Source: Terracidiphilus sp.
Lineage (GTDB): Bacteria; Acidobacteriota; Terriglobia; Terriglobales; Acidobacteriaceae
DNA: 64,000 bases
Assembly: GCA_050012015.1 (NCBI GenBank)
Contig: JBEKHZ010000003.1
Location: 332,970-396,969, forward strand
Direction: 5' to 3'
Below are positions 9,179 through 34,466 of this stretch, piece after piece. Made by a program: the position numbers and the translations under genes. The stretch's first letter is position 1. Each line of letters starts with the position of its first letter. Below the pieces are notes generated by a model. The model made no database searches and was not told the origin of the DNA. It worked only from the letters and a program-made list of their open reading frames with translations.

Positions 9179-10348
9179 CTATTGTTTCTGAGCAGCCACA
9201 GAAGTGACCTGAACCGGGCTGTCGGAATCTGTTACTGGTGCGCTGACAACCGGCGTCAGTTTGTTCACAGGTATTTCTGTTCCTACGGGGAAGATGAGAA
9301 TCTGGATCGAGCCCCAATCCGCTTCCAGGGTTGCATCTGCCTGCTTACCCATTCCCAAGGTCTTAAGCTGGCTGTCGTCAAATCCAAAGTTTTCGACTAA
9401 ATACTCACGCACAACCATAGCCCTGGCTTCGGTAAGCACCAAGTCCTTTTGGGTATCGCCTTCCATGCCTGTTGAAACCACGATTACAGCAAATCCAAAT
9501 TGATTCTCTGCCAGGTACTCGCCGCCGGCGTTGAGAGTCTTCTCATTCTTCAGCTTGGCCGAATCGCGAGCATCGAAGAGTTGCCTCGCTGTGTAGGTAA
9601 ACGCCTTCAGAGGCGTACCGAGCGGAAGCCAGCTAATCTTATGTGCTGACAAAGCGGCGGAGTCTTCGTATCCACGCTTTCTGAAATACCCGCTCAAAAG
9701 AAAGTTATGCTTCAACGCTTCCATATTTTCCTGGAAGTCTGTCACGCCGACTTGCGCCTGGAGCATCGTGGCGTGTAGCGTAGTCGTTGTCTGTTCCAGG
9801 TTGTTATAGAGTTGCTTGTCGTTCACCAGCGCACCTATAGTTCCCTGTCCCGAGTCGATCTTGGCGCTAACCGAATTCAGATGCTCAGTGGCTTGCTGGC
9901 CGCTATCCAGCATTCCGTTCGCCTTCTTGAGCATATCCGCCATCAAAAGCGGAGGTTCACTCTCAATGAGATCGCCATCTTTTACTTCGGCTTGCCCGGC
10001 AGATCCAAACGAAATGGCCACGAACTGATTACCCAACACTCCTTCAGTTTCGATTGAAGCCACGGAGTCCCGCTTGATGATCTCGTGTGTCGATCTGTCG
10101 AGATCCATGACCACCGTGACCTTTTCACCTGGCTTATGAGGTAAATCGATGCTATGCACAGTTCCGCTGTGAACTCCGCCTACCTGCACGTCGGCTCCAT
10201 TAGCCAGGCCCGCCACATTGTCGAATTGCGCTTTCAGTTGGTAAGTGGAGCGAAACAGATAGTTCTTGCCTCCGATAATGAAGACCCCGGCAGCCAGAAC
10301 TGCCAGCGCCAAAACGATGAATGCTCCCAGCCGCGCTACTCTCGACAT
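9179..10348 (-). CDS. mlaD: MlaD/MCE-domain protein with OmpA-C-like C-terminal extension
   Basis: N-terminal TM plus MCE domain (YQLKAQFDNVAGLANGADVQVGGVHSGTV). The C-terminal region VIVVSTGMEGDTQKDLVLTEARAMVVREYLVENFG resembles the OmpA-like N..LS..RA..V..YL motif. Confidence 0.85.
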   Translation of the reverse strand: MSRVARLGAFIVLALAVLAAGVFIIGGKNYLFRSTYQLKAQFDNVAGLANGADVQVGGVHSGTVHSIDLPHKPGEKVTVVMDLDRSTHEIIKRDSVASIETEGVLGNQFVAISFGSAGQAEVKDGDLIESEPPLLMADMLKKANGMLDSGQQATEHLNSVSAKIDSGQGTIGALVNDKQLYNNLEQTTTTLHATMLQAQVGVTDFQENMEALKHNFLLSGYFRKRGYEDSAALSAHKISWLPLGTPLKAFTYTARQLFDARDSAKLKNEKTLNAGGEYLAENQFGFAVIVVSTGMEGDTQKDLVLTEARAMVVREYLVENFGFDDSQLKTLGMGKQADATLEADWGSIQILIFPVGTEIPVNKLTPVVSAPVTDSDSPVQVTSVAAQKQ

Positions 10349-10356
10349 ATATCCTC

Positions 10357-11145
10357 CTACGACAGTTTCAGAAAATCTTCAACGAATCCGATATCGCTCT
10401 GTTGAAGATCTTTAAACGTGCCTTCGATTACAACATTTCCCTTATCCAGCAGAGCCAAACGGTTGGCAGTCGTTCTGGCGCTGTGCAGGTCGTGTGTTAC
10501 TACAATGGATGCCATCCGACGCTCACGCTGCAGCTTGAGAATCAAATCGTCGATCTCGCCCGAGCTGATGGGATCAAGGCCTGCAGTGGGCTCGTCAAGA
10601 AGCAGAATCTCCGGCTCCAGCGCGAGCGCGCGCGCCAGGCCAACGCGTTTTTGCATCCCGCCTGAGATATCGGAAGGCATCGTATCAAGGTTGCCTTCCA
10701 TGCCCACCTCAGCGAGTAACTGCTTCACACGTTTGCTGCGCTCAGAGCTGGACATATCTTTCCTGTGGTGTACAAGGGGAAACGCCACGTTTTCAGCCAC
10801 AGTGAGCGAATCGTAAAGCGCTGCATGCTGAAACAAAAAGCCCATCTTCTTCCTGATCTCGCCCATCCGGTCAAGAGCCAGGCCAACAATATTCTGGCCA
10901 TGGATGCAAACCGATCCCGAGTCGGGTGTTTCCAGGCCGATGATCAACCGCAGCAAAACGCTTTTTCCCGTGCCGCTACGTCCTAGCACGGCCAATGTTT
11001 CCCCGCGGTTCACGCTCAGGCTAATTCCGTTGAGAACCATGTGACTTCCAAAGGTCTTCCGCAGGTTATTGACCGCGATAACCGGCGCACAGCCATCTTC
11101 TTCAGATCGCTCTTGCTTCATCGCGATGTCACAGGTTGTGGCCAT
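10357..11145 (-). CDS. mlaF: ABC transporter ATP-binding protein (MlaF-like)
   Basis: Walker A GRSGTGKS, signature ISGGMQKRVGLARAL, Walker B ILLLDEPTAGLD. Confidence 0.9.
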   Translation of the reverse strand: MATTCDIAMKQERSEEDGCAPVIAVNNLRKTFGSHMVLNGISLSVNRGETLAVLGRSGTGKSVLLRLIIGLETPDSGSVCIHGQNIVGLALDRMGEIRKKMGFLFQHAALYDSLTVAENVAFPLVHHRKDMSSSERSKRVKQLLAEVGMEGNLDTMPSDISGGMQKRVGLARALALEPEILLLDEPTAGLDPISSGEIDDLILKLQRERRMASIVVTHDLHSARTTANRLALLDKGNVVIEGTFKDLQQSDIGFVEDFLKLS

Positions 11146-11180
11146 TCATATCTCACAAATGGTGCGTAAAGGGTTAAGGG

Positions 11181-12032
11181 TTAAGGGAAGACAACCAGAA
11201 TGAATTTCACCAGGACAACATCGGCCAGAATCACGAAGAGCGATGCGAGAACCACCGAGTTTGTGGCAGCTCGGCCAACGCCCTCAGCTCCACCGCGTGT
11301 TCGCATTCCTTGAAAGCACGCTATAAGCCCGATAATCAGGCCATACACAGAGGTCTTGAATGTCTGGGGCAGGAACGTACTAAAAGTCGCGCCCTTGAAG
11401 CCGTCCTGGATGAACTGATGAAACGAGAGCGGCTCGACCAGTGTTTGCGCAAACCAGCCCATCAACAGGCCGCATCCATCGGAGATAAGGGTCAGCAACG
11501 GCAGCATCAGGATGCAGGCCAGAATTCGTGTCGCTGCCAGATACCGATAAGGATTGATTGCCGATGCCTCAATGGCGTCGATCTGCTCGGTAACTTTCAT
11601 CGATGCAAGTTCCGCGCTAATGCCGGCTCCCACACGCCCGCTTACTACCAGGCCGGTGATGATCGGACCCATCACCTGGATCACGGAGTACACGAGAGTG
11701 GCGGGAAACATGGATTTAGCGCCGAATCGACTTAGACTGTAACGTGCTTCCAGCGAGATAATTACGCCGATAGCGGAGCCGGCCATGACGACTACCGGAA
11801 AAGACTTCGATCCAACCTCGTCGAGTTGATGGATTAGCTCACGCCACTCATACGGCGGCGTTACAGCCGCGCGCAGTACCTGCCAGAAGAAGATGCCCAG
11901 ATTGCCGAACCACTCGAAGAAGCCTTCAACCAGCCCGACTGCAGAACTCGCAGCGGTGTTCATGAGCATATTCCGCCGCCCCGGAAGCGGCGGGTTGATG
12001 GCTGTGACGGTAATGATTCCGCTGTTACTCAA
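11181..12032 (-). CDS. mlaE: ABC transporter permease (MlaE-like)
   Basis: MlaE-type polytopic permease (…QIDAIEASAINPYRYLAATRILA…). Operon position upstream of mlaF/mlaD. The exact start is uncertain. Confidence 0.9.
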   Translation of the reverse strand: MSNSGIITVTAINPPLPGRRNMLMNTAASSAVGLVEGFFEWFGNLGIFFWQVLRAAVTPPYEWRELIHQLDEVGSKSFPVVVMAGSAIGVIISLEARYSLSRFGAKSMFPATLVYSVIQVMGPIITGLVVSGRVGAGISAELASMKVTEQIDAIEASAINPYRYLAATRILACILMLPLLTLISDGCGLLMGWFAQTLVEPLSFHQFIQDGFKGATFSTFLPQTFKTSVYGLIIGLIACFQGMRTRGGAEGVGRAATNSVVLASLFVILADVVLVKFILVVFP

Positions 12033-12901
12033 TGGTTTGGACCGGGTTCTAGCGCGCCGTGCCTATTGTTAAGATGCATGCGTGAAAGCAAGGAATGGGG
12101 TCCGCTATAGATGAATTCCAGGGCAATATTCTCGCCGGCAAATGCCAGCAAACCGTAGTTGCCCATTCTAAATGCATCCTTGGCGCCGTAGCGGTTGGGG
12201 TACCAGCCATAGACGGCGGTCATCGTGCCCGCATACGGCCCGACGAGCGCAGGAATAGAAAAGACACGATGGCCGTCTCTGCCGCGGCGCGCTGTCAAGG
12301 TCGAAATTACGGCATAACTCAGCCGCGGAAACACGCCTCTGCACTCGCAGCGGTAGTACATCGCGTCTTGCTTAAAGGCCTCTGACAGCCCGTAACGTGT
12401 CGTTGTGGCTACCATTGCGATGCCGTAGTCGGACCCGAATCTCTTGGAGTAACCCTTAACGCCTTGATTCCATTCCGGCGGAGAATTGGTTGCCTGGTTA
12501 ATGCCGGCGCCGAACGCGGCTCCGGCAATAGGGTACGGACCGAACGCGTCGAAAACGTAGTTGATGATCTTTATTCTCTGCGTCGGGCGCACATACGTCA
12601 GATCAATCTGGCTAGAGGTTGTGCTTGCTTGAGTGTCAGAGGAGTCTCCCGCATAGGGTAGTGATTGCGACCCAGCCATCACTGACAAACATGCCATGAC
12701 TACAGCTACCAGCAGCATAAACAATACTCGGCGGACCTTTTTGTCGATAGGCTCGTTGATCGAGCGGAATCCAAGTATTCCGGCCAGATCGCCATAGAAG
12801 GCAAGCATAGACTGCGAATTCGGTATCTTCATGGAGGTCGTCAAGGTTTCGTCTTCGGTCAGCATCGGCTCTCCTGATACATCTGGCTCTGTCAAGAACA
12901 A
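12029..12901 (-). CDS. hypothetical exported/membrane protein, first gene of the Mla-like operon
   Basis: 290-aa ORF whose stop overlaps the mlaE start by 4 nt, with an internal signal-like segment LFMLLVAVVMACLSVMAGS. No family recognised and the start is uncertain. Confidence 0.55.
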   Translation of the reverse strand: MFLTEPDVSGEPMLTEDETLTTSMKIPNSQSMLAFYGDLAGILGFRSINEPIDKKVRRVLFMLLVAVVMACLSVMAGSQSLPYAGDSSDTQASTTSSQIDLTYVRPTQRIKIINYVFDAFGPYPIAGAAFGAGINQATNSPPEWNQGVKGYSKRFGSDYGIAMVATTTRYGLSEAFKQDAMYYRCECRGVFPRLSYAVISTLTARRGRDGHRVFSIPALVGPYAGTMTAVYGWYPNRYGAKDAFRMGNYGLLAFAGENIALEFIYSGPHSLLSRMHLNNRHGALEPGPNH

Positions 12902-13960: not shown

Positions 13961-14824
13961 TTGATGAATTCGCCACAAGCGCTGGAATTTTCAAAGCCAA
14001 AGAGGCTATTTCCTGGGCGTTCATCCACACACCGGACAAACTGTCTAGAATGGGGCGTTATTTTGAAGAACAGAAACACACGAATTGCATTTGACTGCGT
14101 AGCTTTTCTTGCAAACGCGGGACTTGGCCGCAAAATCGTTCATCTGGAGCCTAAAGAGACCTTTTTCTCCCAGGGAGATCTGGCCGATACCGTTTTCTAT
14201 CTCCAGACAGGCCGGGCAAAACTCACTGTCGTTGCGCAGAACGGCAAAGAAGCCACAATCACGCTCCTTTCTGTCGGCGATTTCGTTGGAGAGGAGTCCC
14301 TGGCGTCCATTCCTGGATTGCGCCTGGCGACAGCTTCAGCTATCAATACATGCACCGCGCTCAAGATCACCAGGGGAGAGATGGCCCACGTGATGCATGA
14401 CGAACCGGTATTTGCGGACTTCTTTCTGAAATTCATGCTGAATCGCAGTATGCGAACTCAGGCGGATCTTGTTGATCAACTTTTCAATTCCAGCGAAAAG
14501 CGTCTGGCGAGGATTCTTCTGATCATGGCGGAATTCGGCAAGCCCGGCGAGCGGGACACCTTCATTCCTCCCATTTCACAGGAAACTCTGGCGGAAATGA
14601 TCGGAACAACACGGTCGCGGGTGAGTTTCTTCATGAATCGCTTTCGCGCTCTCGGTTATATCAATTACAACGGCCGCATCCAGGTAAACAAATCTTTGCT
14701 CAATGTGGTTCTTCTCGACCAATTGCCGGATCATAACGCGCAAAAGCCGCTCTTTTCAGCGGTCAGAGCTGATCTGAGCTCGCAGTCTCAAAAGTTGAAA
14801 CCATTCTTGAGCCAGTCATTTTGA
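13961..14824 (+). CDS. Crp/Fnr-family transcriptional regulator
   Basis: cNMP-binding fold (FFSQGDLADTVFYLQTGRAKLTV...GDFVGEESL) plus a C-terminal HTH (TTRSRVSFFMNRFRALGYI). The true start may be the in-frame TTG at 14063. Confidence 0.85.
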   Translation: MMNSPQALEFSKPKRLFPGRSSTHRTNCLEWGVILKNRNTRIAFDCVAFLANAGLGRKIVHLEPKETFFSQGDLADTVFYLQTGRAKLTVVAQNGKEATITLLSVGDFVGEESLASIPGLRLATASAINTCTALKITRGEMAHVMHDEPVFADFFLKFMLNRSMRTQADLVDQLFNSSEKRLARILLIMAEFGKPGERDTFIPPISQETLAEMIGTTRSRVSFFMNRFRALGYINYNGRIQVNKSLLNVVLLDQLPDHNAQKPLFSAVRADLSSQSQKLKPFLSQSF

Positions 14825-14888: not shown

Positions 14889-15506
14889 CTATTGCCTGTG
14901 CGCATGAACAATAAATCGTTCCGGAGCTGCTCCGATATAGTAAAACGGATAGCAGGTGACAAGCGTTAGGGAAGATTCAGTTGTAGGGGCCAAAACGCCA
15001 TTGTCGCTCGGGGAAGTGATCCGAATCCAATCTACTTCGTATGTGGTGATTCCAGTGGCAGTCTCAAGCTGAATCTCGTCATCCTTGTGAATGTCTTTCA
15101 GTGCGCGAAAGTAGGTATCCCGGTGCCCGGCGATTCCTATGTTCCCCGGCTCGCCGGGGAGCGCCGTTCCTTTGATGTGGCCTACACCCAATCGCAAAGT
15201 TCTCCATGTCGTCCCTTGCAGAACAGCTACCGATACTCCAATCCTTGGAATCTCAATGCGGCCAAGAACATCGCCTTCTTTAATTGCGAGAACAGGTTGC
15301 ACTATCTTGTGCTGTTCTTCCGCTTGAATCTGTTTATCCAGAGCTAACACGGCGTTTTTCTGATAGATCCTTGCACTGACCAATGTGAACACAACATATG
15401 AAAACGCGAGAATACCGCTGACTAGCAAAATGTTTCGCGTCCAGCGCATGAACCGCTGGTTTCGCGTTGTGAACGTCTTTGGCTCAGTTATGGGAATCAT
15501 GTCCAA
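14889..15506 (-). CDS. sortase-family transpeptidase (class D/E-like, N-terminal TM anchor)
   Basis: TM segment ILLVSGILAFSYVVFTLV, IAGHRDTYF (His), TLVTCYPF (Cys), PERFIVHA (Arg). The start overlaps the VWA gene stop by 23 nt. Confidence 0.85.
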   Translation of the reverse strand: MDMIPITEPKTFTTRNQRFMRWTRNILLVSGILAFSYVVFTLVSARIYQKNAVLALDKQIQAEEQHKIVQPVLAIKEGDVLGRIEIPRIGVSVAVLQGTTWRTLRLGVGHIKGTALPGEPGNIGIAGHRDTYFRALKDIHKDDEIQLETATGITTYEVDWIRITSPSDNGVLAPTTESSLTLVTCYPFYYIGAAPERFIVHAHRQ

Positions 15507-16566
15507 CTGTCACAGATCCTGGTGGAGGGGGCGTCAATGGCACGAAGTAACCAGCCCGTGTGCGAGCCGATAAGCGGCCGCGATCCGGCGAGCTAACCTT
15601 CACATCGATGACCCGATACCCGCCATCTTGCTTTAGAATCTTGGGAACGTAAGCTAATGTGTACTGATTACGAATATCGTGTGCAATCCCTTCACAGATT
15701 AAAGATAGCTCCTTCGAGGATTGTGGAAAGAATGCCTCGCCGCCGGTTTCTTTCGCAAATCGTTTGAGCACGCTTGGGTTCTGATCGCCGTCCTGTTCAT
15801 CGAAGATGCCGATCGCGTAGATGATTGCTCCGGAATGCCTGGCCATTTCAATAACCTGGGCAAGATTGTGCTTACTTGCATTATCGCCGCCATCACTGAT
15901 TAGGATAAGCACTTTCTTGTCGCAACTGCCCTGCTTGAGATGATCGAGAGCCACGGCTATCGCATCATAAAGGGCGGTCTCTCCTATTGCCGTGATATCA
16001 GAAAGCCCGAGCTGCAACTGGTCAAGCTTATCTGTAAACGGAATTCCGGCTGGCAGGCCGTATGACACATGCTCATTGAAATTGACCACAAACATCTGGT
16101 CCTGCGAATTGCTGGAACGAGCGAACGACATTGCCGCGGCAATCACATCTGAGCGCTTCGACGCCATACTTCCGCTGTTATCGATAACCAGGCCTACTGT
16201 AACCGGGAGATCTTCATGGCTGAAATCTGTGATTTGTTGAAGAACATGATCTTCATAGACCTGAAAATCTTTTTTATTAAGTCCGGAAACAAGCGCATTG
16301 TGACTGTCCACGACTGTCGTGCTCAAGATAACCAGATTTGCATCGACTTTGAGAGTGTAGTTGTCACTTGAGTGATTCTGTGAAGGAGCACTGACTATTT
16401 GAGACCAGGCAGCGCCAGGGAATGCAATCAATATTGCAAGAGCGATAAGGCAAAGAAGCAAATTGTTCCCTATTTTAACAATACGCCATCCTGTCGAGAA
16501 ATGCCCCTGCGCAGACAAGCCGGCTACTCTCTCTTGACATCTCTTGGACGAGGTTATCTCCGTCAT
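15484..16566 (-). CDS. membrane-anchored VWA-domain protein (Acidobacteria-expanded VWFA type)
   Basis: N-terminal TM, then a MIDAS-like VGLVIDNSGSM and ...ETALYDAI...VLILISDGGDNAS. From memory, the overall layout resembles the TIGR03436 family. Confidence 0.85.
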   Translation of the reverse strand: MTEITSSKRCQERVAGLSAQGHFSTGWRIVKIGNNLLLCLIALAILIAFPGAAWSQIVSAPSQNHSSDNYTLKVDANLVILSTTVVDSHNALVSGLNKKDFQVYEDHVLQQITDFSHEDLPVTVGLVIDNSGSMASKRSDVIAAAMSFARSSNSQDQMFVVNFNEHVSYGLPAGIPFTDKLDQLQLGLSDITAIGETALYDAIAVALDHLKQGSCDKKVLILISDGGDNASKHNLAQVIEMARHSGAIIYAIGIFDEQDGDQNPSVLKRFAKETGGEAFFPQSSKELSLICEGIAHDIRNQYTLAYVPKILKQDGGYRVIDVKVSSPDRGRLSARTRAGYFVPLTPPPPGSVTVGHDSHN

Positions 16567-16627
16567 CTATTTTGTCCTTTGTCCTGGCCTAAAGTAATTC
16601 CACAATAAATCCACGCACGTGCTCCAA

Positions 16628-16661
16628 TGAAAAAGTGAGGCGATGCTCCTGCACCGCCTCA
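16628..16661 (-). terminator. rho-independent terminator/attenuator between the sortase-substrate gene and the VWA gene
   Basis: Minus strand reads TGAGGCG-GTGCAGGAGCAT-CGCCTCA followed by CTTTTTC, starting about 22 nt after the stop of the 234-aa gene. Confidence 0.5.
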
Positions 16662-16683
16662 TTTACTGAATCGTGCTTCTGAG

Positions 16684-17388
16684 TTAGACGGACTTCTTGA
16701 GAAGGCCGGAAACCAGAAAGCCGGCGCCCAATAACATCAGTCCGGACAGTCCAATCAAGCCAAGATCGCTGGCGGTTGCCGGTAAAGATGCGACTTCCAC
16801 TGGTGCTGGCGCGGCAGCAGCCACGACCGGCGCGGGAGGCGGTTCAACAACCTGGGCTGTTTCAACTGTTTCGCCGGCCGGGGTGACTGCCACGACGGGT
16901 GCCGTCACTAAAACCTCGACGGGCGCGGCTGCCAGTGCGACGGGGGTTGCAAGTACAACCTCATTGGTTTCCTTGGCCAGTTGGATGGCTTTGGGCTTGT
17001 CATAAACAAATTGCTCGCCCCATTCACGGCCGGGATAGAACCATGCCTTCAGAGCCTCAGGCTGTCCGGCAGGCCGCTCGCTAAAGGTCATGACCGTTTT
17101 GTTGGTGGACTTCAGACGATAGTTGGGCATTGCGACGATGAGGGTGAAGACATGGGTTTCATCCAGGTTCGAGATCTGGACGATGTGTTCGTACACTCCT
17201 GCATTGATGACTTTGAAAACATAGGTCCCCGCGGGCAATATCTGGGCGCCTGTGCCCCCAACTTCGACCGGTGCGCTAAATGTTACGATAGACTTTCTGT
17301 TGAAATCGTCGGCCTTCGCTTTCGGCGCGACGAGTACACAGAGTACGGTAAGGCAGAGTCCTGTTCCTAAGCCTTTGAGCAGTGTCAT
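16684..17388 (-). CDS. secreted protein with C-terminal sortase sorting signal (LPATA + hydrophobic helix + KK tail)
   Basis: Signal peptide MTLLKGLGTGLCLTVLCVLVAPKAKA, a ~120-aa globular domain and an Ala/Pro/Val-rich stalk. LPATA is encoded at 16771-16785 and is followed by SDLGLIGLSGLMLLGAGFLVSGLLKKSV. Confidence 0.7.
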   Translation of the reverse strand: MTLLKGLGTGLCLTVLCVLVAPKAKADDFNRKSIVTFSAPVEVGGTGAQILPAGTYVFKVINAGVYEHIVQISNLDETHVFTLIVAMPNYRLKSTNKTVMTFSERPAGQPEALKAWFYPGREWGEQFVYDKPKAIQLAKETNEVVLATPVALAAAPVEVLVTAPVVAVTPAGETVETAQVVEPPPAPVVAAAAPAPVEVASLPATASDLGLIGLSGLMLLGAGFLVSGLLKKSV

Positions 17389-17804: not shown

Positions 17805-18368
17805 ATGCGAGCACTCAAAACTCTTCTCGGAACAACAGCATTGCTGGCGGGCCTGGCCCTGGCGCCAGCAGTTCAGGCTCAACTCGTCATCGACGTTGGC
17901 GCTCCACCCGTATGTGAGTACGGCTATTACGATTATTCACCTTACGCCTGCGCGCCCTATGGATTTTACGGACCGGGGTACTTCTACGGCGGCGTCTTCC
18001 TGGGCATGGGCCCATGGTCCGGCTGGGGCTATAGCCACGGCTGGGGCAGCCATCGCTTCAGCAACGGTGGCGGCGGAAACTATCGTGGCGGCGGCGGCGC
18101 CATGGCCAATCGCAGCAATTATGCACGCGGCGGCGGGGAAACACGCTCCAATGGCGGTGGTCAGGTTCGCGGTAACGCAGCGGCTTATCATTCAAGCGGT
18201 GCGCGTCCCAGTGCAGGTCATGCAACAGTGACTCGTACATCAGCTTCGCGCGGCAGCGCTTCTCACGCAGCGCCAGCGCGTGGCGGTGGAGGACATCCCA
18301 GCGGCGGCGGTGGTGGACATCCCAGCGGCGGTGGCGGTGGTGGACATCCCAGCGGCGGGCACAAGTAA
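17805..18368 (+). CDS. secreted Gly/Tyr-rich protein with C-terminal (G4-6HPS)3 repeat
   Basis: Signal peptide ...ALAPAVQA, then YGYYDYSPYACAPYGFYGPGYFYGG. The 3' end holds three tandem ~21-nt units encoding GGGGHPS. RBS-like GGGGGG lies before the ATG. Confidence 0.65.
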   Translation: MRALKTLLGTTALLAGLALAPAVQAQLVIDVGAPPVCEYGYYDYSPYACAPYGFYGPGYFYGGVFLGMGPWSGWGYSHGWGSHRFSNGGGGNYRGGGGAMANRSNYARGGGETRSNGGGQVRGNAAAYHSSGARPSAGHATVTRTSASRGSASHAAPARGGGGHPSGGGGGHPSGGGGGGHPSGGHK

Positions 18369-19105: not shown

Positions 19106-22100
19106 TCAATGAGTTCTCTTGTGATATCGGTTGGGCGCGCCCGGTGTGGGAACGTTGTCAGTGACCTGTGCTCCGCTGGCATGGTTTCGCGTGAGCGGCG
19201 CGGTGAGGGTGATGCCGGAGCCTGAGAGCTGTGCTCCAGCGGGATGCGCCTGCTTGAGGGGCGCAGTGACGGTGATTGCGGCGGCTGGGAACCTCTGGAC
19301 AGAGGCAATGACTGCAGTCTCGGATGCGACGCCGTTGTCGATGGTGATGGTCTGACCCTCGCTAAAGCCAGCCGGGTTAACGACAGGAATGGCGGTTGCA
19401 CCCAGGGCGGTGGCCGTGCGCACCGTTGTAGCTCCTGCGGTACCGACAGTCGCAATCGTTACGATTTCCAGGTCCGCTCCCGAATCGATGCGGATCGAGT
19501 CTCCAGCGACGAAGCCTTCCACGCCTGCGACCTTGATGTTGGTTGCGCCTGCATCCGAGGCGACCGGCAGGGTTGTGGCGGCCTGGGTCAGAAAATCGGC
19601 GCAGTTGCTGCCGGTGTCAGCGCCATCCGGGTAGCGGCCAGTGCTTGTAGTAGTTGCAGCGGCAGCCGCCTGACCGAAACCGCTCACGACCGGTCCAGGA
19701 GTGGGTGCGAAGCAGCCGCTCCTGTTGAGACCCGAGGCAGCTTGATAGCCCTCTGCGGCCCATGGATCGGCGAGGCTGCCGTAATTGAGGCTGTCGACAA
19801 CCAGACCCGAGGCATCGCGCAGAATTATGCTGCCTTCACGGAGGGTGGTGATGCGGCCAAAGAACGGAACCTTGGAGGTCAGTTCAGGGCCGCCAAACCA
19901 CTGATTGGGCTCGGGGGTCCCCTGATAGCCGGCAGTAGTGACGGCTACGTCGCGGACAACGGTATTTATCCCATATGAGCCGGAAAGAGGCTTGTCGAGG
20001 GTGATACCCGTTCCCGCCGGCTGGACGGGATCGTTGCTGTAGTGGTCGTAGATGGTGGCCGGCGCAAAGCTGATGCCCGTTCCGCGATCGCTGAATGGTA
20101 GATTGGCGGCGTGATTGAACCTGAGTGGAGTGGCCAGGTCGAGGCCGGTACCTGGAGAGACGACCCACTCGTCGCGAATGTGCGCCTGGGTAAGGGCTGG
20201 CGTGAAGTCAATTCCCACGCCATTCGGCCCTCCGCCGCCGACCGCCGTGATGGTCACGATTTCTTTGTTTGCAGGAGTGCCAACCGTGATCTTGTCGCCT
20301 ACGGCAAAGCCCTCCGCGCGGCGGACCTTGATCGAAGTCGCGCCTGTGCTCACATCTGCCGTGAGTTTGGTCTGGTTGGCCTTGGTTCCGATGCGCGTGA
20401 CGGTGACGGTGTCAATTCCATGGCCGACACTGTCGATGTCCAGACGGATCTTGTCTCCCTCGGAGATATCGGCAACGGAAGTGACTTTGAGATTCAACTC
20501 ACCTATAGAGGCATCCGCTGCCAAATAGGCTTGTGTGCCGGGCTTGCCGACAGCCGTCACGGTGACCATCTCATATTCACTCAGTTTGCCGGTCACAGAA
20601 CGCAGCGTGGAATCGTCGCCTTTCAGGGAATATTTTCCCATTACTCCCCCGATGGCGATCTTCTGGCCAACGACGAAGCCCGCCGTGGTGGTGACGGGGA
20701 GATTCTTTGAGCCAGCGGGAATAGCGATCACCGGGCCATCGGGAAGTGGTTGCCAGATCGTTGTGAGAACGGGGGCGGCTGTACCGATGGAGGCGATTTT
20801 TCGGGTCTCCGAGTGCGCGCCGTCGCCGATTGTTATCTCATCGCCAACCTTCATTCCCTCGATACTGCGGAGATAGATCGTGGAAGCTGTAGGAGTAGCC
20901 GGAAGTACGAGTCCGGAGTTTGCGAGGCCGAGCAGATAAAAGCCATACGAAGCGAGCCTGGTTCCGGTAGGAATCTTCACGGCCGAGAAGATGGCCTGCT
21001 GGGCGGGGTGCTCAGTGAGGGTCCAGTTGGAGATGTCAACGCTGCTCGCGCCGGCGTTGTAGAGTTCGATGAAGGAGTTCGTCGGATTGCTGGGCGATCC
21101 GGAACTGATGCGGAACTCGTTGATCTTGACCGGGCTGGCGTTGTGAAGCTTCTCGACCGCCGTCTCGGTCTGCGATTTGCCGTTGGCTTGATTGGTCCAT
21201 GTGGCTTTGGCGACGAGGTCGCCGTTAAAAGCGGCCGGGCCGGAGGTGACCTTGAAGGTGGCGCTGACGCTCGCACCGGGCGCAACGGGATCGGCGAAGG
21301 TCTTTACGGTTTCCTTGCCCTCAGCGACGACGACGGTCCACTGCTTGCTGGGCAGCGAGAGACTCAAGCGAAGCCCGGCGACGGGCGCGCCTGTCGTGTT
21401 GGTGAACGTAACCGTTGTTTCCTGCGAAGAGCCCGGAGCGAAGATCTGAATTCCCGGCGGCTCGGTGGCGGCCGATGCAGGCGCTATGCTCACAGGCGCA
21501 ACGTCGTAGTGCGCGGCAACCACGTTGGCTTGCACAAGCTGATCGGTGGCATTGGTTGGGAAGGTGCCCGCGGCTGTCATCGCGCCTTCGTAGAAGGTGC
21601 CCTGCGAGCCATTGCTGTTGTCGCCGCCGTTGCCCAGTAGGATGGCCCCCTGCTTTCGCATGGGGTCGTAGGTGCCGTTGACTCGGCCTCCATCGAACAT
21701 GACCAAGAGCGCTCCCTGTTGCGCGTCACCGCCCATCGAGGTCCAGTGGTGCGGCTCGCCCTTGGCGATCGCGGTAACAAACCGCCATGTGATGTTTGGC
21801 AGTGTGCAGTTTTTTGAGCCATCCGCGATGACGCAGCCGACGAGGTTGTTCTCCTGGTCGGTCATGATCCATGGGCCGGGCATGGTCCCGTGATACCAAT
21901 AGGGGGCATCGCCGTAATAGGCGGTTTCCATGGTGCCGTTGTCGTCGTCGCGGCTGTCGATCTCGGCGTTGCCGTAATCGAAGCAGCAGCCGGAGTTGAA
22001 GTGCTGGCCGTTGATGACCCAGTACTGGTCCTCGGCCTGATCGTCGACCGCTGTGCCCCTCGCATCGTCCTGGCGAAGGCCCATGCCCGGCTCGATGAAG

Positions 22101-22603
22101 ACACCGTAGGCCTTGTGGCCCATGATCGTAATCGGCGCCATGTCGGCGAGCGGGAGGTTGTTGAAGCCGCCCAGGGCCGGGCCGTTGAATCCGCCGCGGG
22201 GCGCCTGGGTCAGGTCGTTGTGCTTGGGTGACTGATCGTAGATTTTGCTGATCCAGCAGTACGTGTTTGCGCAGAATTTGTCCTGCGCGGCTGCGTCGGC
22301 GTACCCGCCTCCATCCGGAACCGGCGACTTCACTGGCTGAACAACGCCAATGTCCAGAGTCTTGCCGTCCGACTGGCGCAGAACCTGGTAGAGTGGGCCG
22401 CTGTACCCGGCGTAGAGTGCGCGTGTGGTGCTGTGGGCGGCCACGCATGGATCTCCTGCGACGGCGTAGATGTCGCATGGGCCTTGCGGCCTGGAGGGAG
22501 CAACATTGGCTCCCGCCCCGGCTTGAGCCGCCATCGTTAACGTGGCGCCGGTCATCGTCAGCGCTACCGCGAGCATAAGTGCACAATCGATTCTCGTTTT
22601 CAT
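19106..22603 (-). CDS. secreted GH54 alpha-L-arabinofuranosidase fused to NEW3-like and lamin-tail (LTD) domains, with repeat-module arrays
   Basis: After the signal peptide, GPCDIYAVAGDPCVAAHSTTRALYAGYSGPLYQV...CCFDYGNAE...GPWIMTDQENN...GNGGDNSNGSQGTFYEGAMT matches fungal/bacterial AbfB (GH54) almost motif for motif. LTD signature VKINEF...FIELYN...ISNWTL and later ...LRDASGLVVDSLNYG...GRYPDGADTGSNCADF. Confidence 0.9.
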   Translation of the reverse strand: MKTRIDCALMLAVALTMTGATLTMAAQAGAGANVAPSRPQGPCDIYAVAGDPCVAAHSTTRALYAGYSGPLYQVLRQSDGKTLDIGVVQPVKSPVPDGGGYADAAAQDKFCANTYCWISKIYDQSPKHNDLTQAPRGGFNGPALGGFNNLPLADMAPITIMGHKAYGVFIEPGMGLRQDDARGTAVDDQAEDQYWVINGQHFNSGCCFDYGNAEIDSRDDDNGTMETAYYGDAPYWYHGTMPGPWIMTDQENNLVGCVIADGSKNCTLPNITWRFVTAIAKGEPHHWTSMGGDAQQGALLVMFDGGRVNGTYDPMRKQGAILLGNGGDNSNGSQGTFYEGAMTAAGTFPTNATDQLVQANVVAAHYDVAPVSIAPASAATEPPGIQIFAPGSSQETTVTFTNTTGAPVAGLRLSLSLPSKQWTVVVAEGKETVKTFADPVAPGASVSATFKVTSGPAAFNGDLVAKATWTNQANGKSQTETAVEKLHNASPVKINEFRISSGSPSNPTNSFIELYNAGASSVDISNWTLTEHPAQQAIFSAVKIPTGTRLASYGFYLLGLANSGLVLPATPTASTIYLRSIEGMKVGDEITIGDGAHSETRKIASIGTAAPVLTTIWQPLPDGPVIAIPAGSKNLPVTTTAGFVVGQKIAIGGVMGKYSLKGDDSTLRSVTGKLSEYEMVTVTAVGKPGTQAYLAADASIGELNLKVTSVADISEGDKIRLDIDSVGHGIDTVTVTRIGTKANQTKLTADVSTGATSIKVRRAEGFAVGDKITVGTPANKEIVTITAVGGGGPNGVGIDFTPALTQAHIRDEWVVSPGTGLDLATPLRFNHAANLPFSDRGTGISFAPATIYDHYSNDPVQPAGTGITLDKPLSGSYGINTVVRDVAVTTAGYQGTPEPNQWFGGPELTSKVPFFGRITTLREGSIILRDASGLVVDSLNYGSLADPWAAEGYQAASGLNRSGCFAPTPGPVVSGFGQAAAAATTTSTGRYPDGADTGSNCADFLTQAATTLPVASDAGATNIKVAGVEGFVAGDSIRIDSGADLEIVTIATVGTAGATTVRTATALGATAIPVVNPAGFSEGQTITIDNGVASETAVIASVQRFPAAAITVTAPLKQAHPAGAQLSGSGITLTAPLTRNHASGAQVTDNVPTPGAPNRYHKRTH

Positions 22604-22817
22604 TCTTATCCTGTCTGCTTGCCGGGTTTCTTACTGCATCTAGAATTCTCGCGGTTCCAGGGATGGAATGCAAGCAGATCGAATTAACAGCCTGAAGAAG
22701 AAGGGGGTGGAAAATCGTCCACTCGGTCTCTGTGGTATTTTTCTTGTTGAAATGGTTCGAGCCCAAATCGAACGGCCAGTGAATCAACGAGCCAAACAGG
22801 ACCAAAGGAGATAGGAC

Positions 22818-24971
22818 ATGCCAATGAATCGACGTGAGTTTTTAGCAGTTTCGGTGGCAGGCGCTACCCTGTTGCAACAAGGGATGACAGCCTTTTCCGA
22901 ACCGTCAGGAAGCCTAAAAGTCTCAATCGATGCGTCGAAGAGCGGTGAGCCGATCAATCCGCTGATCTTCGGGGGATATATGGAGCCGGCTACCACTCAG
23001 GTGTGGGCCGAGATGCTGACCGACAGGAAGTTTGCCAACCCGGTGACCGATGCGACTCCGCCTCTGACGAACTCATTCTTCCGCCGCTTTATGGGCGAGC
23101 CATTTAAGCCGGTGGGGCCAGCGGGAACGGTCGAGATGGATACTGTACGGCCATTTGTGGGCAAACACAGCCCGCGCGTCAAGCTCCAGGGCTCAGAGCC
23201 GCGCGGCATTCGGCAATCAAAATTGCGCCTGGGCAAAGGCAAGACATATGTTGGCCGCATCTATCTTGCCGGCGATCCCGGCGCAAACGTTGTGGTCCGC
23301 TTGATATGGGGAACAGGCGCCGGCGGCTCTCAAACCATCCATATCCCGCCGCTCTCGCGCGAGTACAAAAAGTTTCCGTTAAAGTTCACTCCGACGGCCG
23401 GCACAGTGGATGCAAGCCTCGAGATCCTGGGCACTGGCAGTGGCGCATTTCACATCGGGACCGCCTCGCTAATGCCCGCCGACAATGTGGAGGGATTCCA
23501 CTCTGGGATGATCCGCCTTTTCAAAGAAGAAGGTTTCAAAATGTTCAAGTGGCCCGGCGGCAACTTTGTCTCCGCTTACGACTGGCGTGACGGTCTTGGC
23601 GATCGGGATAAGCGCCCGCCGCGCCTGCAGGTGATGTGGTCCGACAGGGTGGAGTCGAACGACGTTGGCCTTCATGAGTTCATGGCCCTCTGCCGGCTGG
23701 TCGGAGCCCAGCCCGATTTGACCATCAACAGCGGAATCGGCTCGGCGCGAGAGGCGGCCGAAGAAGTCGAATACTGCAATGGCTCCGCCGAGACGCGCAT
23801 GGGAAAAATGCGCGCTGAGAATGGCCATCCTCTGCACTTCAAGGTCCGTCTCTGGACCATCGGAAACGAGATGTACGGCGACTGGCAGTTCGGCTACATG
23901 GCGCTTGACCAGTATTGGGTCAAGCACAATTTCATCGTCGAAGCCATGAAGAAGGTGGACCCAACCATTAAGGTGACCGTTTCCGGGGCGACTATCTGTG
24001 AAAAGTCCGTGGGAGGCGCGGAAAAGCGGAACAACTTCTTCCCGGATATCTGGGAGGCGCCGATGCGCGACAAACTTCCCTATGAGTTCGGTGGGCTCAA
24101 TGACTGGGACGGATGGCTGCTGGAAAAGTGCGCCGGCAACATCGACTTTCTCTCCGAGCATACCTACGCTTATCCTGACCTGGCCTTCGACGCTGAGAAG
24201 CAACTCTTCGTGGATGTTCACGACCCGCTGCAGTTCAAAGCCCGGCGTCTGGCCAACCGCATCGGCGAAGCCTTCGAAGCCTGGGATAAGTACGTGGAGA
24301 AGATGCCGTGGTTGAAAGACAAAGGCATCAAATTCATATTCGATGAGTGGGGCAATCGCCTCTTTTCAGCCTCCGGGAATAGCAACGGCGCCAGTTTCTT
24401 CCGCCAGACCGGAATGCTGATGCCGCTCTCTTACGCGCTTTGCCTGCATGAGATATTCCGCCACTCCGGCATGGTGGAGGCCAGTTGCGCCACCGGAGGG
24501 CTGCGCTTGTTGACCGACAACACCGGCGAGGCAGTGGGCCTTGCGGCCGAGGGAATGGTGATGAAGCTCTTGCAAACTCACTTTCTCAACGCTCTACCGG
24601 TTGCCGTCGACGGAGATTCGCCGCAGCCGTTGGTGCCCGGCACGCCGTTTGTTGACAGGGGCACAAAGCCCACGGGAAGCCCGACCTATCCTCTGGATAT
24701 TCTGGCGGCGTTCTCCAGCGATCGCAAGAAGCTCCTCATCTCGGTGGTAAACCCCACGGAAGTGCAGCACAGCTTCGCTGCGAAGATCGGCGGCGTCAGG
24801 ATGCGCGGACAGGGGAAGCTGTATCGGATTGCGCCGCCCAGCGTGAACTCAACCAATGAAGCGGGCAAAGATCCCGCGGTCAAAATCGTTGAAACTGCGC
24901 AAGACATGCTTCCGGAAACGGTGCAGGTTCCGCCCGTAAGCGTTAACCTCTACGAATTGGAGATTGCATAA
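22818..24971 (+). CDS. secreted GH51-like alpha-L-arabinofuranosidase (Tat-type signal)
   Basis: MNRREFLAVSVAGATLL twin-Arg leader, clan GH-A motifs WTIGNEMYGDWQFGY and IFDEWGN. AGGAG RBS upstream. Confidence 0.75.
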   Translation: MPMNRREFLAVSVAGATLLQQGMTAFSEPSGSLKVSIDASKSGEPINPLIFGGYMEPATTQVWAEMLTDRKFANPVTDATPPLTNSFFRRFMGEPFKPVGPAGTVEMDTVRPFVGKHSPRVKLQGSEPRGIRQSKLRLGKGKTYVGRIYLAGDPGANVVVRLIWGTGAGGSQTIHIPPLSREYKKFPLKFTPTAGTVDASLEILGTGSGAFHIGTASLMPADNVEGFHSGMIRLFKEEGFKMFKWPGGNFVSAYDWRDGLGDRDKRPPRLQVMWSDRVESNDVGLHEFMALCRLVGAQPDLTINSGIGSAREAAEEVEYCNGSAETRMGKMRAENGHPLHFKVRLWTIGNEMYGDWQFGYMALDQYWVKHNFIVEAMKKVDPTIKVTVSGATICEKSVGGAEKRNNFFPDIWEAPMRDKLPYEFGGLNDWDGWLLEKCAGNIDFLSEHTYAYPDLAFDAEKQLFVDVHDPLQFKARRLANRIGEAFEAWDKYVEKMPWLKDKGIKFIFDEWGNRLFSASGNSNGASFFRQTGMLMPLSYALCLHEIFRHSGMVEASCATGGLRLLTDNTGEAVGLAAEGMVMKLLQTHFLNALPVAVDGDSPQPLVPGTPFVDRGTKPTGSPTYPLDILAAFSSDRKKLLISVVNPTEVQHSFAAKIGGVRMRGQGKLYRIAPPSVNSTNEAGKDPAVKIVETAQDMLPETVQVPPVSVNLYELEIA

Positions 24972-25166
24972 GATTGAGCGTTCGCCGCTTTTCTTCCTGC
25001 AGCAACTTTCCGGGCCCTTCAAACATCCAGTTTGTCTCACGTCCACTGGCACAGATTTTGCCGGGCAGACCAATGGCACATGCCTGTGACCTTTCAAGCC
25101 ATTTAAAATTGCATCGACGCGGAAGTGTTTATCTTTAAGAAGCACCTCCTCGAAAGAAAGGAATCC

Positions 25167-27461: not shown

Positions 27462-27578
27462 CGCACCTCCGATGTTTCCTCACTGATAGGCAGGGAGCGA
27501 TGGCAACGATGTTCTTCAATCCATCACACTCAATTCGAAGGTTAAGTCGCAGACAGACCGAAAGGATGTAACGAAGCC

Positions 27579-33662: not shown

Positions 33663-33692
33663 GGAGTCCTGAGTTGCAAGCGCGGCTAACGG

Positions 33693-34211: not shown

Positions 34212-34466
34212 TGAGACAATGACTCCTTGAAAAACAGGATTTGGAGGACTTGAAGAGATTATTGCTCCGAATTATTTTCTTTGGCAATAGCAAATGTGTT
34301 TTTAGCAGGTTTTAATTCCGTTCCATAAGTTTCAAATGAAATTACTAATAAACATTTCGCGGCATTACCTTTGGGTTTGCATGCAAAATTAAAAACGTAA
34401 TGAGAACTCGGAAACAGCGCCCCAGCGCTTGCAGTAAGACGAATAAACAGAGAAGATGACGCAACT

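What the first reader, a model, noticed from the sequence alone, without database searches (positions are those of the whole stretch)
14889..17388. Sortase + VWA protein + dedicated LPATA-tailed substrate module in an apparently diderm (Acidobacteria-like) genome
Three co-oriented minus-strand genes form a compact unit:
1. A 234-aa secreted protein with an Ala/Pro/Val-rich stalk. It ends in a textbook sortase sorting signal: LPATA at nt 16771-16785, about 22 hydrophobic residues, then a KK tail.
2. A hairpin + T-run attenuator at 16628-16661.
3. A membrane-anchored VWA/MIDAS protein.
4. A TM-anchored sortase with His (GHRD), Cys (TLVTCYPF) and Arg (ERF). Its start overlaps the VWA stop by 23 nt.

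Sortase anchoring is a monoderm paradigm. As far as I recall, in diderms only proteobacterial sortase / VWA-target pairs have been catalogued, and they remain functionally uncharacterised. Here the VWA protein has no sorting signal and a separate small protein carries it. The acceptor could be peptidoglycan, the VWA protein or self-polymerisation, and the biological role is open.
Basis: partly seen in the sequence, partly recalled or inferred. Interest (0 to 1): 0.7.

Follow-up and report, generated by a model that had tools for sequence, protein, structure and literature searches.

The report
Dedicated sortase operon in Acidobacteria
A soil bacterium with two membranes carries a conserved three-gene unit in which a Gram-positive-style sortase enzyme sits beside its own single target protein and a metal-binding partner, which offers a widespread, unstudied case for asking what sortases do in Gram-negative cells.

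Summary
Three co-oriented minus-strand genes encode three proteins:
- a secreted 234-aa cargo ending in LPATA, a hydrophobic helix and KK;
- a VWA/MIDAS protein (TIGR03436);
- a membrane-anchored sortase with an intact His-Cys-Arg triad.

The sortase scores as class D (NF058671, 155 bits against a cutoff of 140). Its closest solved structures are the class D enzymes of Clostridium perfringens and Bacillus anthracis. It does not score as the proteobacterial "class GN" type.

The cargo tail (LPxTA-S-x-hydrophobic-K/R) is present in all 120 close homologues and in every related genome locus examined. The order cargo, VWA, sortase holds in 64 of 82 loci across Terriglobia, from Terracidiphilus to Bryobacterales, while the flanking genes change. 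The identities of the three proteins co-vary (r = 0.80-0.86).

The cargo domain is predicted with confidence (pLDDT 88.6). It has no match in the PDB and only a sub-threshold partial match to DUF2911.

Three details need correcting:
- the VWA protein has a cleavable signal peptide, not a membrane anchor;
- most of the "stalk" is predicted as folded;
- the hairpin is a conserved, covarying stem-loop whose T-run is strong only in the window.

The most likely mechanism is that the sortase cleaves the cargo after Thr and links it to periplasmic peptidoglycan. The acceptor was not tested. I found no paper describing this system. It is a new variant of a known kind, of moderate interest.

The parts
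16684..17388 (-). Cargo gene (234 aa): the secreted sortase substrate
   Evidence: ORF. More than 4399 homologues were found; the 120 listed all carry an LPxT[AGDS] tail. The N-domain family has 2678 clusters at 50% identity.
17311..17388 (-). Signal peptide of the cargo (residues 1-26, probable cleavage AKA|DD)
   Evidence: Read from the sequence. A26 and D27 are conserved in the alignments.
16849..17310 (-). Folded beta-rich cargo domain (residues 27-180). It includes the WFYPG...FVY motif and the conserved segment APVxAVxPxGExVxxAxVV.
   Evidence: AlphaFold2 on 65 sequences gives mean pLDDT 88.6 and pTM 0.72. Alignments. No PDB match by fold (best E = 0.64) or by sequence profile. Weak partial match to DUF2911.
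16786..16848 (-). Pro/Ala-rich linker (residues 181-201) between the domain and the sorting motif
   Evidence: Lower pLDDT of 74-80. Length and sequence vary among homologues.
16771..16785 (-). LPATA sortase recognition motif (residues 202-206); predicted cleavage after Thr205
   Evidence: Sequence. L202, P203, T205, A206 and S207 are conserved in at least 93% of 82 orthologues. Motif counts.
16687..16770 (-). Hydrophobic membrane-spanning segment and basic tail (residues 207-234, ending KKSV)
   Evidence: PF00746 Gram_pos_anchor matches this region in relatives.
16626..16661 (-). Intercistronic stem-loop (11 bp, tetraloop) followed by CTTTTTCATT
   Evidence: A hairpin was found in 33 of 83 loci, against 4.8 expected from shuffles. 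Covariation: 6 of 11 pairs change on both sides, and 0 of 500 shuffles reach the observed score.
15484..16566 (-). VWA/MIDAS protein (360 aa) of the acidobacterial TIGR03436 family, with an N-terminal cleavable signal peptide
   Evidence: MIDAS conservation. Conserved AxA|Q cleavage site. No sorting signal at the C-terminus.
14889..15506 (-). Class D-type sortase (205 aa from TTG, 203 aa from the ATG at 15500): N-terminal membrane anchor and periplasmic catalytic domain. Its start overlaps the end of the VWA gene.
   Evidence: NF058671 at 155.4 bits (cutoff 140) and PF04203. Closest solved structures are 4d70 and 2ln7. Triad conservation. The overlap with VWA is kept in relatives.

Best explanation
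This is a dedicated class D-type sortase operon that is ancient and widespread in Terriglobia (Acidobacteriota).

SHOWN
- The cargo has a Sec signal peptide, a novel beta-rich domain, a short linker, and an LPxTA-S sorting signal followed by a membrane helix and a basic stop-transfer tail.
- The sortase is a type II membrane protein with an intact His-Cys-Arg triad.
- The two genes are inherited together.

INFERRED
1. After export, the cargo is held in the inner membrane by its C-terminal helix.
2. The sortase cysteine attacks the Thr205-Ala206 bond and forms a thioacyl intermediate.
3. The intermediate is resolved by an amine. Following the Bacillus class D enzymes, this is most likely the side-chain amine of meso-diaminopimelate on lipid II or peptidoglycan.
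4. The result is a protein domain covalently fixed to the thin periplasmic wall.
5. The VWA protein is exported as a soluble periplasmic protein. Its gene overlaps the sortase start, so the two are probably made in roughly equal amounts. I read it as an accessory that binds the cargo, or an acidic ligand, through its conserved MIDAS metal site. I do not read it as the obligatory acceptor.
6. The conserved stem-loop after the cargo gene probably sets the stoichiometry, giving much cargo and little VWA and sortase, either by partial termination or by stabilising the 3' end of the cargo transcript.

The physiological role of the wall-bound domain is unknown.

The confidence of 0.55 is for the whole chain, including peptidoglycan as the acceptor. 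The sortase-cargo pairing alone I put at about 0.9.
For: SORTASE CLASS
- NF058671 'class D sortase, LPxTATN-specific' scores 155.4 bits, above its cutoff of 140. Class GN (TIGR03784) scores 95.7, below its cutoff of 158.25.
- The best PDB sequence matches are C. perfringens SrtD (4d70) and the B. anthracis class D sortase (2ln7). His, Cys and Arg align with theirs.

SIGNAL
- The consensus LPxTA-S-[N/D/P/S] closely resembles the Bacillus class D signal LPXTA-T-[N/S/T].
- PF00746 matches 27 of 65 family members, one of them above the gathering score.

ONE-TO-ONE PAIRING
- The cargo gene carries the only such tail in the 64-kb window.
- Cargo genes carry the only credible such tails in 948 kb of related loci.

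UNIT OF INHERITANCE
- The trio is in the same order and on the same strand in 64 of 82 loci, from Terracidiphilus to Bryobacterales, with differing flanks.
- It is also kept in a cargo homologue of about 45% identity.
- Percent identities of the three proteins co-vary, r = 0.80-0.86.

VWA IS NOT OBLIGATORY
- Four loci keep cargo and sortase without VWA.

VWA-SORTASE COUPLING
- The two genes overlap by 4-17 nt in relatives.

MIDAS
- The metal-site residues are conserved.

HAIRPIN
- It is conserved with compensatory base changes.

DIDERM SETTING
- Mla genes, an OmpA domain and an outer-membrane usher lie in the window. A PagL gene lies next to the trio in a relative.
Against: - There is no experimental evidence for cleavage, for the acceptor, or for where the cargo ends up.
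- The broad class D subfamily model NF033746 scores 134.9, below its cutoff of 165. Class D membership therefore rests on one model plus similarity to solved structures.
- The peptidoglycan chemistry of these bacteria was not established here; a literature search gave nothing usable.
- The role proposed for VWA is inference from gene arrangement alone.
- Genome-wide exclusivity of the cargo could not be tested, because only 12-kb neighbourhoods were available.
- The T-run after the hairpin is weak in most relatives, so termination is uncertain.
- The loci used for the covariation count were preselected for having a hairpin.
Confidence: 0.55

Rival explanations
1. The sortase joins the cargo to another protein rather than to peptidoglycan. 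Either it links cargo to a lysine or the N-terminus of the VWA protein, giving a covalent cargo-VWA adhesin, or it polymerises the cargo head-to-tail like a Gram-positive pilus with a VWA tip.
For: - VWA domains are the tip adhesins of many sortase-built pili (my own knowledge).
- The operon layout, an abundant subunit gene followed by VWA and sortase, resembles a pilus island. A stem-loop after the first gene fits a major-subunit gene.
- Distant cargo homologues carry 'FVYPK', reminiscent of the pilin motif VYPK.
- VWA has an invariant Lys137.
Against: - No lysine is invariant in the cargo. The 'YPK' position is K or R and becomes YDK/YER in the window's clade. K59 and K97 are lost in distant members.
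- The sortase scores lower on the class C model (86 bits) than on the class D models (155 and 135 bits).
- The sortase sequence has no DP[FWY] lid motif (read).
- Four loci keep cargo and sortase without any VWA gene nearby.
- A periplasmic polymer would still need a route through the outer membrane, and none is encoded in the unit.
Confidence: 0.12
2. The sortase acts mainly as a release or maturation protease, or it transfers the cargo to a non-peptidoglycan acceptor such as a lipid head-group amine, lipopolysaccharide or exopolysaccharide. The cargo then ends up soluble, in the outer membrane, or on the cell surface rather than on the wall.
For: - In diderms, other C-terminal sorting systems (exosortase/PEP-CTERM, rhombosortase, the type IX PorU) cleave a tail and pass the protein on to non-wall destinations.
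- Tail-less paralogues of the cargo domain exist without a neighbouring sortase. The domain can therefore work unanchored.
- The role of sortases in Gram-negative bacteria is stated to be unknown.
Against: - Every characterised sortase of this class resolves its acyl-enzyme with a wall or protein amine (my own knowledge). Hydrolysis is slow.
- The enzyme is closest to wall-anchoring class D sortases.
- No export or lipid-handling gene is conserved next to the trio.
Confidence: 0.2
3. The unit is a recent horizontal import from Firmicutes with no settled function in this host, or it is a decaying remnant.
For: The sortase class is otherwise typical of Bacillus and Clostridium.
Against: - The cargo family was found in at least 510 stretches of species-representative genomes. 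The 80 best were almost all Terriglobia.
- Identity falls smoothly from 88% to 48% across genera and orders, and does so in step for all three proteins.
- The catalytic, MIDAS and sorting residues are conserved.
- The cargo domain has no Firmicute-type Pfam family.
Confidence: 0.03

Closest known systems
Class D sortases of Bacillus and Clostridium (B. anthracis SrtC, PDB 2ln7; C. perfringens SrtD, PDB 4d70; B. subtilis YhcS; the LPXTA-T-N systems of B. cellulosilyticus)
   Same: - Best HMM (NF058671, above its cutoff) and best solved-structure matches.
- An N-terminal membrane anchor, the TLxTC-type Cys motif, and His and Arg in register.
- A cognate signal of LPxTA followed by a small hydroxyl residue.
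   Different: - The host is a diderm, so the reaction takes place in the periplasm under an outer membrane.
- There appears to be one cargo of a novel fold rather than many enzymes or spore proteins.
- A VWA gene is translationally coupled to the sortase gene.
- The broad class D subfamily model falls below its cutoff (134.9 against 165).
Proteobacterial dedicated sortase system (class GN sortase TIGR03784, VWA-containing target TIGR03788, PdsO, PdsS/PdsR; Shewanella SO2192-SO2196)
   Same: - A diderm host.
- A single sortase with a single neighbouring target.
- A VWA domain within the unit.
- The physiological role is unknown.
   Different: - Here the VWA protein has no sorting signal, and a separate small protein carries it.
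- The sortase belongs to a different class (TIGR03784 at 95.7 bits, cutoff 158.25).
- The VWA protein is not of the TIGR03788 family (24.6 bits, cutoff 551.65).
- The motif is LPxTA, not LPQTG.
- No PdsO or dedicated two-component pair is part of the conserved unit. The commonest neighbour is a Crp/Fnr regulator, in 26 of 82 loci.
Sortase-assembled pili of Gram-positive bacteria (class C sortase, major pilin, VWA tip adhesin)
   Same: The gene trio of an LPxT-tailed subunit, a VWA protein and a sortase, and the likely excess of the first gene product.
   Different: - No conserved pilin lysine.
- No class C lid motif.
- The VWA protein has no sorting signal.
- The host is a diderm.
Braun's lipoprotein and L,D-transpeptidase-linked outer-membrane proteins (covalent protein-peptidoglycan links in Gram-negative bacteria)
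   Same: If the main explanation is right, the outcome is the same: a protein covalently bound to the diaminopimelate-type wall inside the periplasm.
   Different: - The enzyme and the chemistry are entirely different. Here a sortase would join a C-terminal Thr carboxyl to an amine. There, an L,D-transpeptidase joins a Lys or N-terminal amine to the stem peptide.
- The cargo has no lipid anchor and no beta-barrel.

Membership tests
Sortase superfamily (PF04203, peptidase C60) | Sortase-domain HMM match above threshold | tested here: met
   PF04203 at 115.5 bits against 26.6; TIGR01076 at 85.4 against 39.35.
Sortase superfamily (PF04203, peptidase C60) | Catalytic His, Cys and Arg conserved | tested here: met
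   H128 and C185 are invariant, and R197 is kept in at least 93% of 68 orthologues. They align with the triad of 4d70 and 2ln7.
Class D sortase | Score above the cutoff of a class D model, and higher than for the other classes | tested here: inconclusive
   NF058671 at 155.4 is above its cutoff of 140 (met). The NF033746 subfamily model at 134.9 is below 165 (not met). The other classes score lower: E 110, GN 96, C 86, F 22.
Class D sortase | Cognate substrate carries LPxTA rather than LPxTG | tested here: met
   111 of the 120 close homologues have LPxTA. Among the 62 diverse representatives with a strict LPxT tail, LPxTA predominates. This resembles the Bacillus LPXTA-T-N signal.
Class D sortase | Transfers the substrate to the meso-diaminopimelate of peptidoglycan | not testable with these tools
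   Needs biochemistry or muropeptide mass spectrometry.
Proteobacterial dedicated sortase system (class GN) | Sortase matches TIGR03784 above its cutoff | tested here: not met
   95.7 bits against 158.25.
Proteobacterial dedicated sortase system (class GN) | The target is the VWA protein itself, carrying the sorting signal (TIGR03788) | tested here: not met
   TIGR03788 at 24.6 bits against 551.65. The VWA C-terminus (...GSVTVGHDSHN) has no LPxT motif or hydrophobic tail.
Proteobacterial dedicated sortase system (class GN) | Adjacent PdsO (OmpA-like) protein and PdsS/PdsR two-component genes | tested here: not met
   These are not among the conserved neighbours. The window has Crp/Fnr and Usp genes next to the trio.
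Acidobacterial VWFA family (TIGR03436) | HMM above cutoff, with an intact MIDAS site | tested here: met
   212.7 bits against 81.25. D129, S131, T197 and D225 are conserved.
LPXTG-type cell-wall anchor (PF00746 / TIGR01167) | LPxT[GA] motif, about 20 hydrophobic residues, and a basic tail at the extreme C-terminus | tested here: met
   Read directly from the sequence. The window protein itself gives no PF00746 hit at E <= 1. However, 27 of 65 family members do, the best at 26.2 bits against the gathering score of 20.
Sortase-assembled pilus (class C system) | A conserved pilin-motif lysine in the substrate and a lid motif in the sortase | tested here: not met
   No lysine is invariant in the cargo. 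The class C model scores 86.1 against 160. The sortase sequence contains no DP[FWY].
PEP-CTERM/exosortase and other diderm C-terminal sorting systems | A PEP or other signature motif matched by the corresponding NCBIfam or Pfam model | tested here: not met
   At E <= 1, the only tail-related hits are an LPXTA family (TIGR04383) and PF00746.
DUF2911 (PF11138), for the cargo domain | HMM match above the gathering score over most of the domain | tested here: not met
   34 of 65 members match, but only over profile positions 45-90 of 145 and at 12-18 bits against 27. The window protein has no hit.

The most novel reading that the evidence does not exclude
Terriglobia use a sortase to fix an abundant protein of a previously unseen fold covalently to the periplasmic peptidoglycan. 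This would be a third, enzymatically distinct route to covalent protein-wall linkage in Gram-negative-type cells, alongside Braun's lipoprotein and L,D-transpeptidase-linked outer-membrane proteins. The VWA partner would bridge the wall-bound domain to another envelope component, so that the unit acts in envelope architecture or in the stress response.
Probability: 0.35. Interest if true: 0.75.

Novelty: new variant of a known kind. Interest (0 to 1): 0.55.

Why it matters
What sortases do in bacteria with an outer membrane is still an open question. A 2021 review and a 2023 preprint both say so.

This unit is not a rare oddity. The cargo family alone has thousands of sequence clusters, and it was found in at least 510 stretches of species-representative genomes of one of the most abundant soil phyla.

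The pairing of one enzyme with one cargo is clean, and the recognition motif is known. Three experiments are therefore well defined: mutate the sortase cysteine, locate the cargo, and look for the wall-linked peptide.

If the cargo is wall-linked, it adds a new mode of envelope construction in diderms and a new protein fold with an unknown role. If it is not, it shows a sortase used for something other than wall anchoring.

Tried and rejected
STRUCTURE
- The first AlphaFold run, on 18 close homologues, gave a poor model (pLDDT 56). It was replaced by a 65-sequence run.
- Foldseek found nothing significant against the PDB or against viral structures.
- A profile search of PDB sequences gave no hit at E <= 10.

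SEARCH SET-UP
It was repeated with a 14-sequence alignment.
- One script failed because makeblastdb could not read from standard input. It was rerun.

IDEAS CONSIDERED AND DROPPED
- A pilin-like 'VYPK' motif was considered and rejected, because the lysine is not conserved.
- Rfam has no family for the intercistronic hairpin.

TAXONOMY
- Cluster look-ups of distant representatives gave no organism names.
- The one locus labelled Verrucomicrobiia (L048) has Terriglobia-like identities and no sortase nearby. It is probably a binning error and was not used as evidence of wider spread.

LITERATURE
- Searches for an acidobacterial sortase paper and for acidobacterial peptidoglycan chemistry found nothing usable.

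GENE CONTEXT
- The Mla genes next to the trio in the window are not conserved neighbours in other lineages, so they were not counted as part of the unit.


Full report
WHAT IS THERE

Three minus-strand ORFs lie head to tail at 16684-17388, 15484-16566 and 14889-15506.

The first encodes a 234-aa protein. It has an N-terminal signal peptide and ends in ...VASLPATASDLGLIGLSGLMLLGAGFLVSGLLKKSV. A six-frame scan of the whole window finds no other tail with this motif, a hydrophobic stretch and a basic end.

The second encodes a 360-aa VWA protein of the acidobacterial family TIGR03436 (212.7 bits, cutoff 81.25; PF00092).

The third encodes a sortase (PF04203, E = 1.7e-33) with an N-terminal membrane helix.

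Between the first and second genes lies a hairpin with an 11-bp stem and a 4-nt loop, followed by CTTTTTC.

The unit is bounded on one side by a divergently transcribed gene for a glycine-rich secreted protein, and on the other by convergent Crp/Fnr and Usp genes. It therefore reads as a three-gene operon.

WHICH SORTASE

- The best NCBIfam model is NF058671, 'class D sortase, LPxTATN-specific', at 155.4 bits against a cutoff of 140.
- The broader class D model scores 134.9, below its cutoff of 165.
- Class E scores 110, class GN (the proteobacterial type, TIGR03784) 95.7 against 158.25, and class C 86.
- The closest solved structures by sequence are C. perfringens SrtD (4d70, E = 3e-23) and the B. 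anthracis class D sortase (2ln7, E = 2e-20). The GHR histidine, the TC cysteine and the PxR arginine are in register.
- Across 68 orthologues, H128 and C185 are invariant and R197 is kept in at least 93%.
- The sequence has no class C lid motif.

The enzyme is therefore class D-like and clearly not the proteobacterial class.

IS THE TAIL A REAL, CONSERVED SORTING SIGNAL?

- All 120 closest cargo homologues end in LPxT followed by A (111), G, S or D, then S-[N/D]-LGLIGL, a hydrophobic run and K/R.
- An exhaustive HMMER search with the N-terminal domain alone found 2678 clusters at 50% identity (1468 at E <= 1e-10). Of the best 150 representatives, 62 carry a strict LPxT tail (LPKTA 24, LPQTA 14, LPHTA 7). 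Several more carry MPxTA or APKTA. Most of the rest are fragments or frameshifted calls.
- The extended consensus, LPxTA-S-x, is close to the LPXTA-T-[N/S/T] signal described for a Bacillus that uses only LPXTA anchors.
- PF00746, the LPXTG anchor model, matches 27 of 65 diverse members, one of them above its gathering score.
- No PEP-CTERM or other sorting model matches.

SYNTENY

- A scan of one genome per species (GTDB) with a 14-sequence cargo alignment returned at least 510 confirmed stretches. The 80 best were all Terriglobia: Terracidiphilus, other Acidobacteriaceae, Sulfotelmatobacter, Angelobacter, Bryobacterales and Solibacteraceae. The one exception is labelled Verrucomicrobiia and is probably a mis-binned contig.
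- tblastn of the three window proteins against these loci shows cargo, VWA and sortase in that order on one strand in 64 of 82 non-redundant loci.
- Of the rest, eight are cut by contig ends. Four have cargo and sortase but no VWA. Two have cargo and VWA but no sortase nearby. About four have cargo alone.
- In several Bryobacterales a malic-enzyme gene has been inserted between the cargo gene and VWA-sortase.
- The flanks differ between lineages. Examples are Crp plus Mla genes, or PagL plus YebC plus a Tricorn-TPR protein. After the trio, the commonest neighbour is a Crp/Fnr regulator, in only 26 of 82 loci.
- The percent identities of the three proteins to the window's copies co-vary (r = 0.80-0.86), as expected for a unit that is inherited together.
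- A cargo homologue of about 45% identity still sits before VWA and sortase.
- In 948 kb of these loci, the only credible LPxT-tailed ORFs are the cargo genes.

THE CARGO

- With 65 diverse sequences, AlphaFold2 gives a confident model (mean pLDDT 88.6, pTM 0.72). It shows a beta-rich domain spanning about residues 31-180.
That segment carries a motif, APVxAVxPxGExVxxAxVV, that is conserved even at 45% identity.
- Only about residues 181-201 look like a linker.
- Foldseek finds nothing in the PDB (best E = 0.64, TM below 0.2) or in viral models. A sequence profile finds no PDB chain at E <= 10.
- Pfam gives only a sub-threshold match of about 45 residues to DUF2911, in half of the members.
- Conserved residues cluster in an aromatic motif, ERPxGxPxAxxAWFYPGxxxGxxFVY.
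- No lysine is invariant. The 'FVYPK' of distant members looks like a pilin motif but is K or R there, and YDK/YER in the window's clade.
- Tail-less paralogues exist without a sortase nearby.

THE VWA PROTEIN

- The MIDAS residues are conserved.
- In the orthologues, the N-terminal hydrophobic segment is followed by a conserved AxA|Q site, which is a signal-peptidase site. The protein is therefore probably soluble in the periplasm.
- It has no C-terminal sorting signal.
- Its stop codon overlaps the sortase start by 17-23 nt in the window and by 4-17 nt in relatives. This suggests translational coupling.

THE HAIRPIN

- A stem-loop with the consensus GGAGGYGGTRC-tetraloop-GTRYCRCCTCC follows the cargo stop codon in 33 of 83 loci. 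These are mostly the Terriglobales-type loci. Shuffles predict 4.8.
- In 27 aligned copies, 96% of cells pair, 6 of 11 pairs show changes on both sides, and none of 500 shuffles reaches the observed covariation score.
- Caveat: these loci were chosen because they have a hairpin.
- The T-run is strong in the window but weak in most relatives.
- Rfam has no matching family.
- I read it as a partial terminator or a 3'-end stabiliser that raises cargo expression relative to VWA and sortase.

MECHANISM

Shown:
- the parts;
- their topology signals;
- the enzyme class;
- the conserved pairing.

Inferred:
1. The cargo is exported and held by its C-terminal helix.
2. It is cleaved after Thr205 by Cys185.
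3. It is transferred to an amine. By analogy with Bacillus class D sortases, and because diderm walls are generally of the diaminopimelate type (my own knowledge), the wall precursor is the most likely acceptor.
4. The product would be a periplasmic domain covalently bound to the wall.
5. VWA is more likely an accessory or binding partner than the acceptor. It is lost in some loci that keep cargo and sortase, and it is coupled to the enzyme rather than to the cargo.

Rivals not excluded:
- protein-protein ligation or polymerisation;
- release, or transfer to a non-wall acceptor.

COMPARISON WITH WHAT IS KNOWN

- The proteobacterial dedicated sortase system shares the diderm setting and a VWA domain. 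It differs in sortase class, in motif, and in having the signal on the VWA protein itself.
- That system is induced more than 17-fold by peptidoglycan damage in Shewanella. Its deletion did not change ampicillin resistance, and its role is stated to be unknown.
- Five literature searches found no paper on an acidobacterial sortase system. A 2011 genome paper merely counts six sortase genes in Solibacter.
- NCBI annotation already names these proteins 'class D sortase', and sometimes 'LPXTG cell wall anchor domain-containing protein'.

VERDICT

The system is a new variant of a known kind: a class D-type, one-cargo sortase operon of diderm Terriglobia, with a cargo of unknown fold and a coupled VWA partner. 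Interest is moderate (0.55). The parts are familiar and are catalogued by annotation pipelines. The function, the acceptor and the cargo fold are all open, and the unit is very widespread.

Noticed in passing
window 16626-16661 (-); L004, L007, L011-L020 and other loci: The stem-loop after the cargo gene has a conserved sequence as well as a conserved structure (GGAGGYGGTRC, usually a GNRA tetraloop, GTRYCRCCTCC). Its arms resemble a Shine-Dalgarno sequence and an anti-Shine-Dalgarno sequence. No Rfam family matches it.
   Followed up: partly
L076 6849-8585; L068 6758-8548; also L049, L062, L064, L066, L080, L084: In Bryobacterales a malic-enzyme gene of about 580 aa sits between the cargo gene and VWA-sortase. 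In L068 and L086 it sits between cargo and sortase, with VWA missing. It is an unrelated metabolic gene inserted into the unit.
   Followed up: partly
L089 708-1331 (protein P0308); also P0316, P0330, P0332: Paralogues of the cargo domain end in Ser/Asn/Thr-rich tails instead of a sorting signal. L089 has no sortase nearby; its neighbours are a weak DUF5335 match and a resolvase.
   Followed up: partly
window 17805-18368 (+): A divergently transcribed gene encodes a secreted protein rich in Gly, Tyr and Pro, with a repeated GGGGHPSGG C-terminus and no Pfam match. The same family neighbours the trio in about 10 Terracidiphilus-type loci.
   Followed up: no
window 13961-14824 (+); L001; L068 10542-11246: A Crp/Fnr-family regulator is the commonest non-core neighbour (26 of 82 loci). 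A CHASE3-PAS histidine kinase with response regulators lies near the trio in L001 and L088. These are possible regulators of the unit.
   Followed up: no
window 9179-12032 (-): An Mla-type lipid-transport operon (MlaE, MlaF) in which the MlaD protein is fused to a C-terminal OmpA-like peptidoglycan-binding domain. A 290-aa protein with no Pfam match lies upstream at 12029-12901.
   Followed up: no
window 30326-32962 (-), with smaller ORFs at 32916-35134: An outer-membrane usher (PF00577, PapC_C) is present, so a chaperone-usher pilus cluster probably lies in the same window. The neighbouring ORFs were not examined.
   Followed up: no
window 19106-29078: A glycan-degradation cluster. It includes a 1165-aa arabinofuranosidase B catalytic domain fused to a lamin-tail domain and long Ala/Thr/Gly-rich repeats, a GH92 mannosidase, and an SASA-type esterase.
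   Followed up: no
L048 (contig DATMPO010000082.1): This is the only locus labelled Verrucomicrobiia. Its cargo and VWA proteins are 54% and 61% identical to the window's, which is typical of Terriglobia, and no sortase follows. It is probably a binning error.
   Followed up: partly
L020 and L025 (same MAG, MFD05705.bin.1.153): One genome carries two copies of the unit. The second copy keeps cargo and sortase but has only a C-terminal remnant of VWA.
   Followed up: no
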